From the NCBI GenBank assembly GCA_004022145.1, contig RCNU01000006.1: a DNA stretch of 64,000 nucleotides; one strand, given 5' to 3'. The notes under the pieces were generated by a model that was given only the letters and a program-made list of their open reading frames with translations, ran no database searches and was not told where the DNA came from. The position numbers were made by a program, and so were the translations under genes. The stretch is from Paecilomyces variotii (taxonomy: Eukaryota). Within the stretch, counting starts at the first letter, position 1; each line of letters begins with the position of its first letter. Shown here piece by piece: positions 36,420-47,567 of the stretch.

Positions 36420-39400
36420 TCATACTGCCTGCCAGTGTTTCAACCAGGCATCAAGATAACGCCTCATAATCCCATCTTCCATGATGTTCGGACGGTGGGC
36501 TCGAAATGTGGTACTATCCTGTTCTGCCCTCTTCGTGACAAATGTCTTAGCCTCAAAGCCTGACTGTTGCGTACTTTGCCGATCAGGCCTTGCTGACTGA
36601 CTATGCATTGCCTGATAGTAGGTAACGAGTTTCACGGCAGGATTTGTTGAAGTTTCCCCTCTCTTCTCACTTTCTTGTAACATGGCTAACCACCTTTCGA
36701 ATGGAACGGTCTCGAATGATATTCCCGAAAGGCGAATCTCTTTCAAAAGAGTAGACCAGCTGAAAGTATCTGGATTACAGAGATTGTAAACAGTCTCATC
36801 GGGCGATGTCTCTTTGCCATCCGTTGAATAGCCACTGTCACGACGAAATTTTGTCGGCGGCCATGGGGAGTGCACTCTTGCCAAATCAAGAATAACTGAG
36901 GCCAGAGTGTTGACCGGAAGCCATGAACATCTGGTCTCAAGTCTGGGAAGGACCCCCAGTGTTAACGCCGAGCGTATCATCAACGGCAAGGCTTCTGAAT
37001 CGTTCCAGATTCCCTGTTCCGAATCTCCCGAGATCTGACCGATACGCAACGAGTAAGCTCTTGCCCCAGCCTTACTGGCGTTGCTGATAATATGCTCTCC
37101 GACCAGCTTTGACTGCCCGTAGCCCATATTTAGAGCACTGTCAAAGTCTAACAACGTTTCTTCGATAGCTGTTGACGGGTTCCCGAGGGCAGTTGATATT
37201 GAGGAGCAATATAACGTAAGAGCTGGCCACGGCAAGTTCACTGATAGGGAGAACTGTATCAGATTGTGCAACCCTTGAATATGAGGTTCAAACTCTCGCA
37301 AAGGAAGGTTGAAGTTCACTGGCCAGGAGGTATGGATTATGAGCGACACGATATCCCGCATCTTTCCTAGGATCTCCCGCTCTAGACCAAAATCTGGTTC
37401 ATGAAGGGCAGTTGTGAGAGCGACAATCTTGCGTGCATGTTCCTGGGGTAAGACACCAAGGCCGCGATGGTGGAGGGCAGTGACAATTGCATCCATAGGA
37501 TTTTTGCTTCGCGTGAAGCAGTATATGACAGAAACACTGTCATCTTGTAATAGCTGGGAGAGGATATGGGAACCCAATGAACCGGTCGCACCGGTGAGGA
37601 TCTAAGGAAGGTTAGCGCAGTTGTATGTATGTACATACGCTTTCACCTTAGATTAACAACTTACCACCCCATTTTCTTCCGAAAGGGCACTTGAAGTGGA
37701 CGCGTGATCCTCAAAGGTAGAGTACTTATCGACTAGTTCACGCATAGTGGAGGGGTTATCCTCAACAGACGAACCTTGACCCGTTTGCAGGCCCAGAATA
37801 TGTTCAGCCAGTCGATGTACATTCCCTGTTTCAAAAACGATATTGTGCCTAACCTCGGCAGGCCTAAGCTTGAAATGTTGCAAGATCAATCGTCTCAACT
37901 GCAATGCTTTCAGGCTGTCAATCCCTTGGTTAAAAAATGATGCCCCCGTCTCTTCGATATCGACACCTAGATTATTTCGACAAAGTTCGAGTAAATGCAG
38001 CTCCGTGTCTTCAAAAGAAAGCTGTAATGAACCGCTTGAATGAGTCTCAACTTTCTCGTACATATTGTTGATCACATCAGCAAAATCCGCATATACTTTC
38101 GCTCGAATCAAAGACCCTTTGTCAGTTAAGGGGCATTGTATCAAAGGCGGTAATACGACAATCATGTCTCGCGAAATCTGCGAGAATTGCTCGGACCTAG
38201 CATTCGCCGTCTGGATAACGGGCCATATTTCGTCGATGAGGTCCTTCTCCGACATTTCTCCTGCATCCTCTGAACGGAAAACAAGAAGACCGGGAACGGC
38301 CTTGCTAACCCCTACAACAACCGCTTCCCTAACAAGAGGATGTTGCTTGATACATCCTTCGATCGGGAGGGGAAGTACCTTTTCCCCATTCACGAGCGTG
38401 ATGCGATCGTCTAGTCGTGTGACGTACTTCCACCGATCAGGAAGCGTCGGATGTGGTGTGAAGATATCCCTCGAATGGTACGAACCCGGGGGATCGTCTG
38501 CATTTGAAGTTGTCAGAGCAGGATGACCTTTCAGATATACGCACTCGAATAAGTTGTATCCGAGAGGTTTCATATAGATGAACTTCTGAATATCAGGGAA
38601 AAAGCGCAGATAGTTCCACATTTTATCCCCAGCTGGTCGAGAGATAGACTCGGCAACTAGCCCAGCTTCTGTTCTGCGAGGTGTCAGTGACTAGATAAAT
38701 GACCACAGTTGGGAGACTCACAGGCCAAATGCTCCTCCAAACCGTACACCTTCACCCACAAGCTTATCACCCAACTCGTCAGGGCAAGGGGCACCACCGT
38801 ACGTAACTAGCTTGCACTTTTTTAGGACATCGATTGCGCTAGGTTCTTCGACAAGCAACTGAAGGACGTATGGGACAGCGCTGATGGATTCTGGCTGAGA
38901 GGACTTTAAAGCTGCAACGAGGGAACTCGTGGTGAGAGGCAAGGATGCATTCCACATGAAAGCAGTCTTGCGCATCCACATTGCTTGTAAGGCAGTTGAC
39001 AAACCGTGCAGGTGATACCATGGCAGAGTGTTGAAGGATGTTAAGCCGGGACCCCTCAGTGGGTGCGTCATCAGAGCGCGATGTGTTAAGAAAAGTGGTT
39101 TTGGAGTTCCCGTAGAGCCAGATGAATGAAGAACGAGAGCCATTTCATCCGGGTCGCGAAGATTTGCGGTCATTGGATTCTCGGGAACAAGGAAGGGCGC
39201 TCCATGTGTTGTCCGAGGAAGCAGAGGTTGTGCAGTAACATCTTTCAGTTCTAAGATCTGAAGTATGGTGGAGCGAATGTTAAGTGTCGGTCCGTAAAGG
39301 ATCGTGCTACACCCCGTGGCTTCCAACAGTGACACACATGCAGCTGCAGAAAGGCGTGGCGAGAGCATCATGACAGTATAACCCAACCTGCTTAGAGCGA

Positions 39401-39798
39401 AGAACATGATAACCATGTCCATATCGGAAAGACTCAATAATGCAATGACTGATTTTCGACCCTAATTTGTTCATGTTAGCCAATAGTAAAAACCGTGCGT
39501 TCTAGACAAATGTATCTAAAGTCTGGGAGGTAAGTACCGGTCTTCTAAACCCATGAACTTCCAGTTGGGCCACTCCATTTGAAATAAACTCATCCAGATC
39601 CTTCCCCGTGAATAGATCGTACACTATATCGTTACCTTCGATTTTTGGATATGCAAGTATAGGTACTTGCTCCTCATCTGATGCTCGGAGTCGTATCAAG
39701 TCGTCCAGCACTTCTAGCTGACCAAAGCGGGAGATAAGTTTTGTTTTGGTAAGGTCTTCATCGCTATTCTCTGATTTTATTTCTTCCATAGAAGCCAT
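36420..39798 (-). CDS. NRPS-like A-T-R enzyme: fungal carboxylic acid reductase (aryl-aldehyde forming type), about 1063 aa
   Basis: Exons 39798-39538, 39461-38722, 38673-37665 and 37601-36420 join in frame (3192 nt). A domain: LHSSGSTGTPKP, YGGAP, FGLTEAG, SRDIF, RLDD..NGEK. Carrier domain: GIDSL. Reductase domain: ILTGATGSLG and GYGQSK. Confidence 0.93.
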
Positions 39799-45270: not shown

Positions 45271-45677
45271 TGCGTGGGAAAGCCCCGCTAATATCTGATC
45301 CATAATCGATAAGGAGTCTCGAACTCCTTTGATAGTTTATCTAATCAATCTATGAGAGATAAGGAGATAAATAAACGTGACATGTGAAGAGATAAAGTCG
45401 ATACTCAAGTACGTTGTTTATCCTGCCCCTCGCTTGAATTGCTATTGCGATAAAGTTTCTAGGAAGTCAGACCCAGATCCTGGCTTCTGAAACAACGACT
45501 TTATTACACATATAACCCATGTCCATGGCTAAAGTTACATTATTTTTACCAACATCGTCTAGTACTCGAACCTCACCAGCTCTATCGACATGACGCTTTT
45601 GCAGATCGGCCTGAATTGTCGAACTCCAAGTCATATATACATAAACACCAACCAGAATCGCATCCACACCTCTGATA

Positions 45678-47567
45678 TCAGGGTTCCGGATAGCTCTTTG
45701 CCGACTCATCATTATCCCAGACAGACTCGCGCATGAAAGGACTGCGTTTGCGAATTTCTGGACCTTTGAGAACTAGGACACAAGGAACGATAGACAGAGC
45801 AACACCAACGAAACCAAGAAGTGACCCAGCCCAGCCATAGCCAAGATTCTGAAACAGGGGATATGATGCTAGAGGAAGGAAAGCCCCGAATGAGTTGCGG
45901 CCGAGAGAGGCTGCAGACAGGGCCGACGCGGCATACTTTTCATAAGCGTCAGTCAGATAATTGACAACGGCCATGTAGATCGAGTAAATTCCAACTCCTG
46001 TCGCTGCGATCCCGCAGGTTGGAACGATCCAGTGAATATGACCGACGCTGGACCAGCCGTACCAGAAGAGACCCCCTGAAAACAGCAAACTTCCGGGAAT
46101 AGATGAATATAACCGGGCTTCGGGAACTGGCTTCCCGGGCTTTTCCTTATTGTATCTTTCGGAATGTAAGTAGAGTCGATCTTGGAGTGGATTAACCAGG
46201 GTTCCAATAACTGCTCCCACAGAGATAGCAAGCTGAATCATCCCAGTTTGGAAAGTCCCAAACCCGTAGTTAGCGCTGAAAGTTTGAACTACGCTATTGA
46301 AGAACAGATAGAGTATCCCCCAAGCAAAACTAATCCACAGCGTGAAGAAAGTGACCACTGGTTCGGTGAGCAGCATCCTCGTCGGTCGCATAAAGGAAAT
46401 CTTCAGAAGGCTCCAGATGCTGGTACTGTCAAGCTCCACTTCCGCATATACCGGTCTCCCAGTCTCTTTGCGGATCTTCCTTGCGCGTTTTGCGAGGATC
46501 ACGTCTGGTCGCGTTTCGTAGAGGATAAACCAGAAGATCGGAATCAGACCCGAATTATAGATGATCTGGACATAAAAAATCCTAGGAGTCAAGGATTAGC
46601 CGAGCCGTTCCTATGAAGATGCTATATTCATACCATCTCCACGAGTCAGTTTTGTGTATCTCCTGGATCGCTGAGCCGATAAAAGGCCCCAAGGCGATGC
46701 CGATGACACTGGTGAATCCAAAAAGTGACATTGGCAAGCTACGTGCCTTGTCACCATACCAAACATCGCTAATACTTCCGCCCACAATATTGATCGACAC
46801 AGAGGATGCACCGCCACCAAAAAACCGAGTCACAACTAGCGTCGCAAAGTTCTGCGCAAAGGCGGAAGGGAAAAGGGAGATAACCAGAATGAAATATGCA
46901 ACAAAATATCCTGGCATACGCCCCGAAGACTCGGTTAGAGGAACAAAAATGAGTGGCCAAAATGCAGCACCCATGTTCCAAGATGTAGTGGCCCAGTACA
47001 AGTTTGGAAACGGTTGATTTTGAACATGGAATCTTTGTTCCATCTCGTTATTACCGGCGCCATACGTTCCAGCTGGCAGTCCAGTCAAGATGGAACTGTG
47101 TACAGAAGGGAATTCAATTATCAGTAAACCTTCGCACTGCCTAGGCCAGAAATATTGAAAAGGAGGCAGGAATATACGCACATAAAGCACACTGTTATGG
47201 TCAGAACCCATTTGTAAGTTGGGCTCCAATTGAACCTATACATGCACAGAGAGTTTAGCTAGAGTACTGTGTGCCGCGACTGTGGGGGACTGCTCACGGA
47301 TTATCAGGGTCTTCTGCACTGTTCCAAGTATGAATCTCAATGCCCTCTCTATTCCTAGGCACAGAATCGGAATGATCTTTACCCCAGATGGCCTTGATCC
47401 TGGTCGCCGGTCAGCATAGGCTGCCTTCAGGCGACGGTGCAAGTCCGTCTATACCTGTCCCATAACGTCTCACTTGCAGACTGGACGCGCTGATTTGATG
47501 ATTCCTTTTGCAGGCGACCGTCATTACTCAGGTCATTTCGAGACCCCTCTGTCCCCTCCTCGACCAT
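45678..47567 (-). CDS. MFS transporter, DHA1-like drug/metabolite:H+ antiporter (multi-exon)
   Basis: MVEEGTEG...LWDR|IKAIWGK...WNSAEDPDNP, then PLTESSGRMP, VTRFFGG, GGSISDVW, GIALGPFIGS, ETRPDVIL, RPTRMLLTEP, PEARL and NYLTDAYEKYAASALSA DHA1-type motifs. Confidence 0.9.

What the first reader, a model, noticed from the sequence alone, without database searches (positions are those of the whole stretch)
36420..47567. Candidate natural 'de novo vanillin' gene cluster: 3-dehydroshikimate dehydratase + O-methyltransferase + carboxylic acid reductase + exporter
Seen in sequence: three adjacent intact genes encode a QutC-type 3-DHS dehydratase, a divergently transcribed COMT-like O-methyltransferase, and an A-T-R NRPS-like reductase, followed by a DHA1 MFS transporter. 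There is no PKS to supply an aryl acid. Established: QutC-type enzymes convert the shikimate-pathway intermediate 3-dehydroshikimate to protocatechuate. Fungal A-T-R CARs reduce aryl acids to aldehydes. The engineered glucose-to-vanillin yeast pathway uses exactly 3-DHS dehydratase + aromatic CAR + catechol OMT, assembled from unrelated organisms. Inference: this fungus has naturally clustered the same logic (3-DHS -> protocatechuate -> vanillate/isovanillate -> vanillin/isovanillin, or the alcohols), with the MFS exporting the toxic aldehyde. I do not know of a characterised native fungal cluster like this, but I cannot search the literature. OMT regiochemistry and reaction order cannot be read from sequence.
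Basis: partly seen in the sequence, partly recalled or inferred. Interest (0 to 1): 0.92.

Follow-up and report, generated by a model that had tools for sequence, protein, structure and literature searches.

The report
Orphan fungal protocatechuate-to-aldehyde gene cluster
A mould genome carries four neighbouring, transcribed genes that look like a natural version of the engineered glucose-to-vanillin pathway, and the arrangement recurs in related moulds, but nobody has yet shown what compound it makes.

Summary
Window 36420-47567 carries four intact genes. They are an A-T-R NRPS-like carboxylate reductase (CAR), a QutC/QuiC-type 3-dehydroshikimate dehydratase (DHSD), a divergently transcribed PF00891 O-methyltransferase (OMT) and an MFS transporter. 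Spliced RNA contigs of one run confirm every intron I modelled and hold all four genes. The proteins match Paecilomyces variotii.

The linkage is not chance. OMT-DHSD-CAR carry consecutive locus tags in P. variotii, Penicillium alfredii and P. macrosclerotiorum. DHSD-CAR are consecutive in 9 of 14 judgeable species. A metagenome contig repeats the order. The linked DHSDs form their own long-stemmed clade but keep the residues conserved in other fungal DHSDs.

The CAR belongs to one Eurotiales orthogroup that includes An02g00840, AN10297 and ATEG_01052. The papers I read list these as product-less clusters.

Best reading (about 0.5): 3-dehydroshikimate is converted to protocatechuate, then to an O-methylated protocatechuic aldehyde or alcohol, which is exported. 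Vanillin specifically is unproven. Aspergillus orthologues lack a linked DHSD, and no enzyme was assayed. Nine literature searches found no described native fungal DHSD-CAR cluster. I rate it a good, testable genome-mining lead and a new variant of CAR-centred fungal clusters.

The parts
36420..39798 (-). NRPS-like carboxylate reductase (A-T-R), 1063 aa. Exons 39798-39538, 39461-38722, 38673-37665, 37601-36420.
   Evidence: Pfam domains on the exons. Spliced model shows GIDSL (carrier serine), TGATGSLG and YGQSK (reductase). It differs at 3 of 1063 residues from P. variotii protein P0121. RNA joints 37601>37665, 38673>38722 and 39460>39537 in run X3; the first two also in X5. The R domain matches PDB 8aep at 3.2e-41. 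NCBIfam thioester-reductase 9.8e-44 and carboxylic acid reductase 2.3e-24.
41547..42668 (-). 3-dehydroshikimate dehydratase-like TIM-barrel enzyme (QutC/QuiC type), 373 aa, single exon.
   Evidence: PF01261 3e-30. Sole NCBIfam hit is the QuiC DHS dehydratase model, 2.2e-28. Sole PDB hit is 5hmq at 5e-22; I recall it as P. putida QuiC1, but the entry is titled 4-hydroxyphenylpyruvate dioxygenase. Identical to P0001. An unspliced RNA contig covers 41502-42748 in X3. It sits in the cluster-linked clade with 100% SH-aLRT support.
42669..43323 (.). 655-bp divergent promoter region shared by DHSD and OMT.
   Evidence: Follows from the coordinates of the two start codons. X3 bin depth is 23 for 42708-43131, against contig depths of 238 and 491 for the flanking genes. 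No convincing shared motif was found.
43324..44792 (+). SAM-dependent O-methyltransferase (PF00891 class with dimerisation domain), 403 aa. Exons 43324-43515, 43576-43711, 43780-43903, 43964-44403, 44473-44792.
   Evidence: Pfam Methyltransf_2 8.9e-14 and 2e-4 on two exons. Model differs at 5 of 403 residues from P0241. All four introns are seen as GT..AG joints in X3. Nearest solved structures are MpaG' at 6.8e-52 and LepI at 5e-51.
45678..47567 (-). MFS transporter, 544 aa. Exons 47567-47454, 47398-47298, 47235-47182, 47095-46633, 46580-45678.
   Evidence: Only one start and one reading of the intron boundaries (three equivalent placements) gives an open frame. MFS_1 1e-10, Sugar_tr 2.5e-07, TRI12 0.0058. 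RNA joints in X3 and X5.
47901..64000 (.). AT-rich, RIP-like gene-poor block that bounds the cluster on one side.
   Evidence: GC 0.19-0.32, TpA/ApT 1.30-1.35, (CpA+TpG)/(ApC+GpT) 0.35-0.83. The gene-bearing part of the window gives 0.47-0.51, 0.65-0.75 and 1.21-1.24. Only 1 ORF of at least 100 aa lies in 47.5-64 kb.

Best explanation
This is a small, expressed, evolutionarily conserved but product-less ('orphan') secondary-metabolite cluster of Paecilomyces variotii.

Proposed mechanism:
1. A dedicated paralogue of the quinate-pathway enzyme QutC dehydrates the shikimate-pathway intermediate 3-dehydroshikimate to protocatechuate.
2. The A-T-R enzyme adenylates an aryl acid (protocatechuate or its mono-methyl ether), loads it on its phosphopantetheine arm and releases the aldehyde by NADPH-dependent thioester reduction.
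3. The OMT methylates one ring hydroxyl.
4. The MFS exports the product.

The expected product family is O-methylated protocatechuic aldehyde (vanillin or isovanillin) or, after reduction by housekeeping reductases, the benzyl alcohol.

Shown here: gene identities, intactness, splicing, transcription in one library, conserved linkage and orthology relations.

Inferred: every substrate and product, the order of steps, the regiochemistry and the export role.
For: 1. Domain and motif content of all four proteins.

2. Nearest characterised relatives. DHSD: the QuiC model and 5hmq. CAR: the R domain of 8aep, bacterial CARs 5mso and 5msc, and aryl/acyl-CoA ligases rather than amino-acid A domains (menE 1.6e-21 against AA-adenyl-dom 1.1e-14).

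3. Linkage by consecutive locus tags.
- The full trio in 3 species.
- DHSD-CAR consecutive in 9 of 14 species whose same-prefix tags appear in both lists.
- OMT-DHSD consecutive in 5 of 15.
- OMT-CAR within 4 tags in 10 of 14.

4. Metagenome contig L001 has OMT(-), DHSD(+) and a CAR remnant(+) in the window's order, at 50-54% identity.

5. All CAR- or OMT-adjacent DHSDs fall in one clade (100% SH-aLRT, stem 1.08). This clade is separate from the DHSDs of Thermoascus, Aspergillus and Talaromyces, so it is a dedicated lineage. It still shares 84 positions that are at least 90% conserved in both clades, with only 6 clade-specific switches.

6. The CAR tree follows the species tree, so it is one orthogroup. 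The A core is the most conserved domain (50% of columns). The pocket motif LPWYHLHGLSTALQ is identical in 25 of 28 sequences, whether DHSD-linked or not.

7. Run X3 holds spliced contigs of CAR, OMT and MFS and a contig of the intronless DHSD. Contig depths are 154, 238, 491 and 293 (CAR, DHSD, OMT, MFS). Bins between CAR and DHSD read 3-10, and 0 is read at 35500-35923 and 44828-45251.

8. The same three activities convert glucose to vanillin in engineered E. coli and yeast (PMC11591617, passages read).
Against: - No enzyme activity or metabolite was measured.
- Aspergillus orthologues keep CAR+OMT (plus a Zn2Cys6 regulator), but where a DHSD hit was listed it lies on another contig or at distant tags. 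The acid therefore need not come from a linked DHSD.
- In P. riverlandense and P. lagena all three genes have distant tags.
- In L001 the CAR has lost its A domain and carries a frameshift while OMT and DHSD frames are open. DHSD+OMT may therefore work without the CAR.
- In run X5 the CAR and MFS contigs (depth 9.5-14) are well above DHSD and OMT (0.7-3.5). Contig depth is a poor measure, and co-regulation is not shown.
- The nearest solved OMTs act on polyketide phenols or are pericyclases, not catechol OMTs.
- No pathway regulator lies in the window.
- I could not check whether P. variotii has a second, catabolic DHSD, because no genome is held.
Confidence: 0.5

Rival explanations
1. The aldehyde is only an intermediate. 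The four genes supply a reactive methylated catechol aldehyde that unlinked enzymes, or spontaneous chemistry such as imine formation or dimerisation, turn into a larger and so far unassigned metabolite.
For: CAR-derived aldehydes in fungal pathways are commonly further processed (PMC9605436, section 3.1 read). Extract of the A. nidulans strain over-expressing the regulator AN10300 of the orthologous AN10297 cluster inhibited two cancer cell lines, with no product named (PMC12511407, passages read). The Aspergillus versions of the cluster are annotated with more genes, AN2396-AN11337 and An02g00700-An02g00840 (PMC3689640).
Against: Within the window nothing else biosynthetic lies beside the four genes. 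A GH16-like cell-wall gene lies on one side and a RIP-like block on the other. The conserved core across genera is only CAR, OMT and DHSD.
Confidence: 0.2
2. This is a catabolic or detoxification module, not biosynthesis. The DHSD is the fungus's quinate/shikimate-catabolic enzyme. The CAR and OMT convert toxic plant-derived aromatic acids and catechols into less acidic aldehydes, alcohols and methyl ethers that the MFS expels.
For: P. variotii converts lignin-related acids; formation of p-hydroxybenzaldehyde and protocatechuate from p-coumarate is cited in PMC11566741 (passage read). Reduction of vanillate to vanillin and vanillyl alcohol by this species (Rahouti 1989) is recalled only, because that paper is not held. 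A broad-range fungal CAR exists in N. crassa (PMC11591617; PMC9605436). I could not exclude that this is the only DHSD of the genome.
Against: No other qut/qa gene (quinate dehydrogenase, dehydroquinase, activator or repressor) is in the window. The linked DHSDs form a separate long-stemmed clade, while the closest relative Thermoascus groups with Aspergillus DHSDs; this fits a dedicated paralogue. Making protocatechuate from a biosynthetic intermediate and then detoxifying it would be futile.
Confidence: 0.15
3. The CAR's substrate is a different, widely available acid rather than protocatechuate or its methyl ethers. The DHSD-like enzyme is linked for another reason or acts on another cyclitol-type substrate.
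For: The CAR pocket motif and A core are the same in Aspergillus lineages without a linked DHSD. The linked DHSD clade sits on a long stem of 1.08 substitutions per site, which could mark a change of function. The Li et al. survey lists whole CAR clades with no known substrate (PMC9605436).
Against: 84 positions conserved in both DHSD clades and only 6 mostly conservative clade-specific switches argue for unchanged chemistry. DHSD-CAR adjacency in 9 species is hard to explain without a metabolic link.
Confidence: 0.1
4. The adjacency is chance and there is no functional connection.
For: In some Penicillium species the genes are dispersed. No shared promoter motif was found.
Against: The trio or its pairs are conserved across Paecilomyces, many Penicillium and Aspergillus species and an unrelated metagenome contig, at 50-65% protein identity.
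Confidence: 0.03

Closest known systems
Engineered de novo vanillin pathway (Li & Frost in E. coli; Hansen et al. in yeasts), as reviewed in PMC11591617 (passages read)
   Same: It uses the same three activities in series: 3-dehydroshikimate dehydratase, aromatic carboxylic acid reductase needing a phosphopantetheinyl transferase, and an O-methyltransferase. The dehydratase used in yeast is a fungal QutC-type enzyme from Podospora.
   Different: That pathway was assembled from Podospora, Nocardia and human genes. Here all three genes are native neighbours. The reductase is a fungal A-T-R enzyme only distantly related to bacterial CARs (about 1e-15 to 1e-16). The OMT is of the PF00891 class, not an animal COMT. 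The product here is untested.
Fungal NR-PKS + CAR clusters (AtCAR/ATEG_03630, StbB, AscB, CicB, PnlA; 'clade VI' of PMC9605436, section 3.1 read)
   Same: An A-T-R enzyme inside a secondary-metabolite cluster reduces an aryl acid to its aldehyde, often with tailoring OMTs and an MFS.
   Different: Those clusters obtain the acid from a polyketide synthase. Here there is no PKS, and a shikimate-branch dehydratase sits in its place. I could not test which CAR clade this enzyme belongs to.
Orphan clusters around An02g00840 (A. niger), AN10297 (A. nidulans) and ATEG_01052 (A. terreus)
   Same: Their CARs are orthologues (names). They have an adjacent orthologous OMT (An02g00810) and the same A-domain pocket motif.
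   Different: No DHSD is linked there, and a Zn2Cys6 regulator (AN10300) is linked instead. The clusters are listed without a product in PMC3689640, PMC4274970 and PMC12511407 (passages read). In PMC12368960 all six stand-alone A-T-R clusters of A. niger have no product in Table 1. I could not map An02g00840 to an NRRL3 identifier.
Quinate/shikimate catabolic clusters (qut in Aspergillus, qa in Neurospora) with QutC/Qa-4; bacterial QuiC/QsuB
   Same: Same enzyme family and, most likely, the same reaction.
   Different: None of the other qut genes is present. The neighbours are anabolic-type genes. The linked DHSDs are a separate clade.
AsbF in the petrobactin (asb) operon: an 'anabolic' bacterial DHS dehydratase (PMC9324987, abstract seen in the listing)
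   Same: A dedicated dehydratase diverts 3-dehydroshikimate into a secondary metabolite as protocatechuate.
   Different: It is bacterial. Protocatechuate is amide-linked into a siderophore and is not reduced. AsbF did not appear among the PDB sequence hits of this DHSD (1 hit in all).

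Membership tests
3-dehydroshikimate dehydratase (QutC/Qa-4/QuiC type, EC 4.2.1.118) | Xylose-isomerase-like TIM barrel homologous to characterised DHS dehydratases | tested here: met
   PF01261 3e-30. Only NCBIfam hit is the QuiC equivalog model at 2.2e-28; its 99 bits fall below the 1200-bit cut-off of that two-domain bacterial model. Only PDB hit is 5hmq at 5e-22.
3-dehydroshikimate dehydratase (QutC/Qa-4/QuiC type, EC 4.2.1.118) | Conservation of the family's invariant (metal-binding and catalytic) positions | tested here: inconclusive
   84 positions are at least 90% conserved in both the linked clade (32 sequences) and the other fungal clade (21 sequences), with 6 clade switches. 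I did not map individual catalytic residues to a solved active site.
3-dehydroshikimate dehydratase (QutC/Qa-4/QuiC type, EC 4.2.1.118) | Converts 3-dehydroshikimate to protocatechuate | not testable with these tools
   Needs an enzyme assay.
Quinate-utilisation (qut/qa) cluster | Co-location with quinate dehydrogenase, catabolic dehydroquinase, permease and activator/repressor genes | tested here: not met
   None of these domains was found among the 20 ORFs scanned upstream, and there are no sizeable ORFs downstream. A Sugar_tr transporter lies 13 kb away at 21.8-23.7 kb, with unrelated genes between.
Fungal carboxylate reductase (A-T-R adenylate-forming reductase, EC 1.2.1.30) | A-T-R domain order with carrier serine, Rossmann motif and Tyr/Lys of the reductase | tested here: met
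   Pfam domains in order. GIDSL, TGATGSLG and YGQSK are present in the model. Thioester-reductase 9.8e-44. R domain matches 8aep at 3.2e-41.
Fungal carboxylate reductase (A-T-R adenylate-forming reductase, EC 1.2.1.30) | A domain of the acid-activating rather than the alpha-amino-acid-activating type | tested here: inconclusive
   Aryl/acyl ligase models score better than the amino-acid adenylation model (menE 1.6e-21 against 1.1e-14). The A4 region reads LPWYHLHGL, with no Asp. The register of the amino-binding position is taken from memory, not from a structural alignment.
Fungal carboxylate reductase (A-T-R adenylate-forming reductase, EC 1.2.1.30) | Reduces an aryl acid (protocatechuate or vanillate) to the aldehyde | not testable with these tools
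   Needs an assay with holo-enzyme, ATP and NADPH.
Class PF00891 small-molecule O-methyltransferase | Methyltransf_2 catalytic domain plus N-terminal dimerisation domain, and an intact frame | tested here: met
   PF00891 on two exons. The deposited orthologue P0241 carries PF00891 and PF08100. It matches MpaG' at 6.8e-52 over residues 15-398.
Catechol O-methyltransferase in the functional sense | Methylates a catechol hydroxyl of protocatechuate or its aldehyde | not testable with these tools
   The nearest solved relatives act on other phenols. Regiochemistry cannot be read from sequence.
MFS drug:H+ antiporter (DHA1) | MFS fold | tested here: met
   MFS_1 1e-10 on the exon 46585-47235.
MFS drug:H+ antiporter (DHA1) | DHA1 subfamily (12 TMS, signature motifs) and export of the pathway product | not tested
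   I made no subfamily assignment. No homologue search was left for this protein.
Biosynthetic gene cluster | Conserved co-localisation in other genomes | tested here: met
   Locus-tag adjacency and contig L001.
Biosynthetic gene cluster | Co-regulation | tested here: inconclusive
   All four genes appear as RNA contigs in run X3, with low or no cover in several flanking and intergenic bins. In X5 the contig depths are unequal. Contigs cannot rank expression.

The most novel reading that the evidence does not exclude
Eurotiales moulds possess an ancient native 'shikimate shunt' cluster that makes vanillin or isovanillin (or the alcohol) de novo from sugar. A dedicated 3-dehydroshikimate dehydratase paralogue feeds a substrate-specific fungal CAR and a regiospecific OMT. 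This would be the natural counterpart of the synthetic vanillin pathway. The trio would be ancestral and the dehydratase secondarily unlinked in Aspergillus.
Probability: 0.2. Interest if true: 0.8.

Novelty: new variant of a known kind. Interest (0 to 1): 0.6.

Why it matters
If the prediction holds, three things follow.

1. It would be the first described native fungal cluster in which a carboxylate reductase is fed by a shikimate-pathway branch enzyme instead of a polyketide synthase.
2. It would give a product to a conserved orphan cluster present in the model and industrial fungi A. nidulans, A. niger and A. terreus and in many Penicillium species.
3. It would provide a naturally matched fungal enzyme set (dehydratase, CAR, OMT, exporter) for making vanillin-type flavour aldehydes from sugar. 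Current engineered strains are limited at the CAR and OMT steps (PMC11591617).

It would also show how a catabolic enzyme (QutC) was recruited into secondary metabolism.

Tried and rejected
- **Whole genome.** None is held. I could not look for a second DHSD or a qut cluster in the same genome.

- **Metagenome scan with a DHSD alignment.** 80 loci were kept. I examined only the 7 with at least 37% identity (L001-L006, L023) by tblastn. The other 73, at 33% identity or less and mostly bacterial-looking, were not examined.
  - 1 of the 7 (L001) carried CAR and OMT.
  - L003 (15.4 kb) and L023 (8.1 kb), with 37-42% DHSDs, carried neither.
  - The other 4 contigs are 1.4-2.6 kb and uninformative.

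- **Food-fermentation metatranscriptome runs X1 and X2.** They cover the region with long unspliced contigs that run through introns and intergenic DNA. I do not count them as expression or habitat evidence.

- **Shared promoter motifs.** Only one 8-mer is common to the three upstream regions, and CGG/CCG pairs are unremarkable. The test is underpowered and I draw no conclusion.

- **Small ORF 44978-45340.** No Pfam hit. The X3 bin 44828-45251, which covers most of the ORF, reads depth 0. Atlas look-alikes are unnamed ascomycete proteins scoring 0.90. I did not include it in the cluster.

- **Spliced low-level transcript between DHSD and CAR (40459-40956).** No ORF crosses its junction.

- **Earlier findings of this scan.** Four look-ups gave nothing relevant.

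- **Literature.** Nine full-text searches were run.
  - Searches were too broad to be useful.
  - WarA (PMC6952191) and phenylspirodrimane (PMC12573980) hits mention a DHSD and an NRPS-like gene, but these are other loci.
  - The subrubine paper (PMC13107220) concerns a salicylate-synthase cluster, not this one.
  - Rahouti 1989 is not held.
  - Supplementary files were not consulted. They may hold expression or metabolite data for AN10297/AN10300 and for the A. niger A-T-R clusters.

- **CAR clade.** I could not assign the CAR to a clade of Li et al. 2022, because no reference sequences were at hand.

Full report
**1. What is in the sequence**

The window is fungal, with short GT-AG introns. 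Its proteins are identical or nearly identical to deposited Paecilomyces variotii proteins. The DHSD matches P0001 at 373 of 373 residues. The CAR differs from P0121 at 3 of 1063. The OMT differs from P0241 at 5 of 403.

Between 36420 and 47567 lie four genes.

- **CAR, minus strand, 36420-39798.** It is an NRPS-like enzyme of 1063 aa in four exons. Pfam places AMP-binding, AMP-binding_C_3, PP-binding and NAD_binding_4 in that order. The model shows the carrier serine (GIDSL), the Rossmann motif (TGATGSLG) and the YGQSK of the reductase.
- **DHSD, minus strand, 41547-42668.** It is a single-exon 373-aa xylose-isomerase-like TIM-barrel protein. Its only NCBIfam match is the QuiC 3-dehydroshikimate dehydratase model (2.2e-28). 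Its only PDB sequence match is 5hmq (5e-22).
- **OMT, plus strand, 43324-44792.** It is a five-exon, 403-aa PF00891 O-methyltransferase, transcribed divergently from the DHSD across 655 bp.
- **MFS, minus strand, 45678-47567.** It is a five-exon, 544-aa MFS transporter.

**2. Are the genes real and expressed?**

Contigs of four public runs were laid on 35500-48200. Run X3 carries the same organism label as most holders. It is shown to be RNA by its splice joints.

X3 holds spliced contigs of CAR, OMT and MFS and a contig of the intronless DHSD. Contig depths are 154 (CAR), 238 (DHSD), 491 (OMT) and 293 (MFS). X3 reproduces ten of my eleven modelled introns, and the fourth MFS intron is seen in run X5. 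Bins between CAR and DHSD read 3-10. Bins 35500-35923 and 44828-45251 read 0.

Run X5 holds spliced CAR and MFS contigs at depth 9.5-14. DHSD and OMT are at only 0.7-3.5.

Contig depth cannot rank genes. The safe statement is that all four genes are transcribed and correctly spliced in one library. Co-regulation is not demonstrated.

Two metatranscriptome runs, X1 and X2, cover the region with unspliced contigs that run through introns. I do not count them.

**3. Boundaries**

Upstream lie a GH16-like, serine/threonine-rich cell-wall protein, a ferric reductase, a sugar-type transporter, a kinesin and hydrolases. Downstream from about 47.9 kb the DNA is 19-32% GC with RIP-type dinucleotide indices and no sizeable ORF.

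No PKS, NRPS, terpene synthase, transcription factor or other quinate-pathway domain appeared in the 20 of 37 long ORFs that I scanned.

**4. Is the linkage more than chance?**

Whole fungal genomes could not be searched here. I used the locus tags and contig lengths printed with the protein hits.

- **Full trio.** Consecutive tags for OMT, DHSD and CAR occur in three species:
  - P. variotii (DTO027B5_3033/3034/3035)
  - Penicillium alfredii (NUU61_008443/44/45)
  - P. macrosclerotiorum (N7462_009749/50/51)
- **DHSD and CAR.** Among species whose same-prefix tags appear in both lists, they are consecutive in 9 of 14. These also include P. concentricum, P. canariense, P. argentinense, P. nucicola, P. 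bovifimosum and P. paradoxum. They are not consecutive in P. riverlandense, P. lagena, P. angulare, Thermoascus crustaceus or A. hancockii.
- **OMT and DHSD.** They are consecutive in 5 of 15, which also include P. lecythidis and P. brasilianum.
- **OMT and CAR.** They lie within four tags in 10 of 14. These include A. hancockii, A. nanangensis, A. wentii, A. tanneri and A. niger (An02g00810/An02g00840).

Direct DNA evidence comes from metagenome contig L001. It has OMT (minus), DHSD (plus) and a downstream CAR on the same strand, which is the window's arrangement, at 50-54% identity. In L001 the CAR has lost its A domain and carries a frameshift, while the other two frames are open.

**5. Evolution**

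A tree of 55 CARs follows the species tree. Paecilomyces and Thermoascus lie outside a starred group of the Aspergillus and Penicillium sequences, and the Penicillium sequences form their own starred clade. These are therefore orthologues. They include An02g00840, AN10297 and ATEG_01052 (names).

DHSD-linked, OMT-linked and trio CARs are intermingled within Penicillium. This fits an old trio with later rearrangements. Direction cannot be proven without a rooted, wider sample.

A tree of 58 DHSDs puts all Paecilomyces and nearly all Penicillium sequences into one clade with 100% SH-aLRT support and a stem of 1.08 (P. herquei is the exception). That clade includes every CAR- or OMT-adjacent DHSD. 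It is separate from the DHSDs of Thermoascus, Aspergillus, Rasamsonia and Talaromyces (the tool warns that long branches meet here).

Thermoascus is the close relative of Paecilomyces, so this pattern indicates a distinct, cluster-associated lineage rather than the ordinary orthologue.

The lineage still shares 84 positions that are at least 90% conserved in both clades. It differs consistently at only six, mostly conservative positions. I therefore expect the same chemistry.

**6. What the CAR and OMT say**

The CAR's R domain aligns over residues 641-1001 with PDB 8aep (3.2e-41). I recall 8aep as the reductase domain of the Neurospora CAR; the entry itself is titled 'Acetyl-CoA synthetase-like protein'.

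The A domain scores better with aryl/acyl-ligase models than with the amino-acid adenylation model.

I compared 13 DHSD-linked CARs with 15 Aspergillus CARs.
- 421 of 1063 columns are conserved and identical in both groups.
- Only five columns switch between the groups.
- The A core is the most conserved domain (50% of columns).
- The pocket motif LPWYHLHGLSTALQ is unchanged in 25 of 28 sequences.

The substrate is therefore probably the same throughout the orthogroup, whether or not a DHSD is linked.

The OMT orthogroup is sharply bounded. 87 of the 120 listed hits have at least 55% identity, and the rest have 50% or less. The nearest solved structures are MpaG', LepI and OxaC. It is a fungal secondary-metabolism phenol OMT whose specificity cannot be read from sequence.

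**7. Mechanism proposed**

The steps are:
1. 3-dehydroshikimate is dehydrated to protocatechuate by the DHSD.
2. The aryl acid is adenylated, loaded as a thioester and reduced to the aldehyde by the CAR.
3. One phenolic hydroxyl is O-methylated.
4. The product is exported by the MFS.

The order of steps 2 and 3 and the 3-O versus 4-O regiochemistry are open. Housekeeping reductases may take the aldehyde on to the alcohol.

I put about 0.5 on 'an O-methylated protocatechuate-derived aldehyde or alcohol is the pathway product'. I put about 0.2 on vanillin or isovanillin (or the alcohol) being the end product.

The rivals are:
- the aldehyde is an intermediate of a larger metabolite (0.2);
- a catabolic or detoxifying role (0.15);
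- a different acid substrate (0.1);
- chance adjacency (0.03).

**8. Comparison with what is known**

The three-activity logic equals the engineered DHS route to vanillin (PMC11591617, passages read).

Characterised fungal CARs that reduce aryl acids within clusters, as listed in PMC9605436 (section 3.1 read), take NR-PKS-derived acids. Two of that paper's seven CAR clades have no characterised member.

The orthologous Aspergillus clusters are listed without products in:
- PMC3689640;
- PMC4274970;
- PMC12511407;
- for A. niger A-T-R clusters in general, PMC12368960.

PMC9913763 reports the AN10297 cluster among AtfA-dependent gene sets, including in conidia (table passage read).

The full-text searches aimed at a native cluster combined dehydroshikimate dehydratase, QutC or AsbF with NRPS-like, carboxylic acid reductase or cluster terms. 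They found no description of a native fungal DHSD-CAR cluster. The library lacks most subscription journals, and I did not read supplements, so prior description elsewhere cannot be excluded.

**9. Verdict**

- The cluster is real, expressed and conserved.
- The shikimate-to-aryl-aldehyde logic is the best reading.
- The named product is a hypothesis.

It is a new variant of the known CAR-centred fungal cluster type. It is readily testable, including in model Aspergilli. Interest 0.6.

Noticed in passing
window 47901-64000: A 16-kb AT-rich block directly abuts the MFS gene. GC is 0.19-0.32, TpA/ApT 1.30-1.35 and (CpA+TpG)/(ApC+GpT) 0.35-0.83. Only one ORF of at least 100 aa lies in 47.5-64 kb, at the block's edge. 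It looks like RIP-degraded repeats, and the cluster sits at the edge of such a region.
   Followed up: partly
window 44978-45340 (-): A 120-codon open frame lies between the OMT and the MFS. It has no Pfam hit. The RNA run X3 bin 44828-45251, which covers most of the ORF, reads depth 0. Protein-atlas look-alikes are unnamed ascomycete proteins of 97-164 aa (score 0.90), with a weak DUF2867 lead (0.78). It may be a silent small gene or a relic.
   Followed up: partly
window 40459-40956 (-): A low-level spliced transcript (depth 6-9 in X3; 60-nt CT..AC intron at 40896-40955) lies in the 1.7-kb spacer between DHSD and CAR. No ORF crosses the junction. It may be non-coding RNA or an upstream CAR leader.
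   Followed up: partly
L001 2729-7527: A metagenome contig with the same OMT / DHSD / CAR order. Here the CAR lacks the whole A domain (only about 1.1 kb separates the DHSD stop from the carrier-domain tail) and has a frameshift in the R domain, while the OMT and DHSD frames are open. It is either natural decay of the reductase or an assembly error. A GH32-like gene lies upstream instead of an MFS.
   Followed up: partly
proteins P0141, P0158, P0180, P0229; P0387: Several Aspergillus section Nidulantes records annotate the CAR orthologue as a 1591-1661-aa fusion with a Zn2Cys6 domain (PF00172). The old A. nidulans model AN2403 was later split into a transcription factor and AN10297. These are probably merged gene models, and they show that a pathway regulator sits directly beside the CAR there. 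No such regulator is in this window.
   Followed up: no
window 35500-48200, runs X1, X2: Libraries labelled as food-fermentation metatranscriptomes hold this locus as long unspliced contigs at 95-99% identity, with many strain differences. This looks like DNA of a related strain carried in RNA libraries, not transcripts.
   Followed up: no
window 28470-29324 (+): A 284-codon frame with no Pfam hit ends in a motif that I recall as typical of SET-domain proteins, and it has a hydrophobic N-terminal stretch. It is unrelated to the cluster as far as I can see.
   Followed up: no
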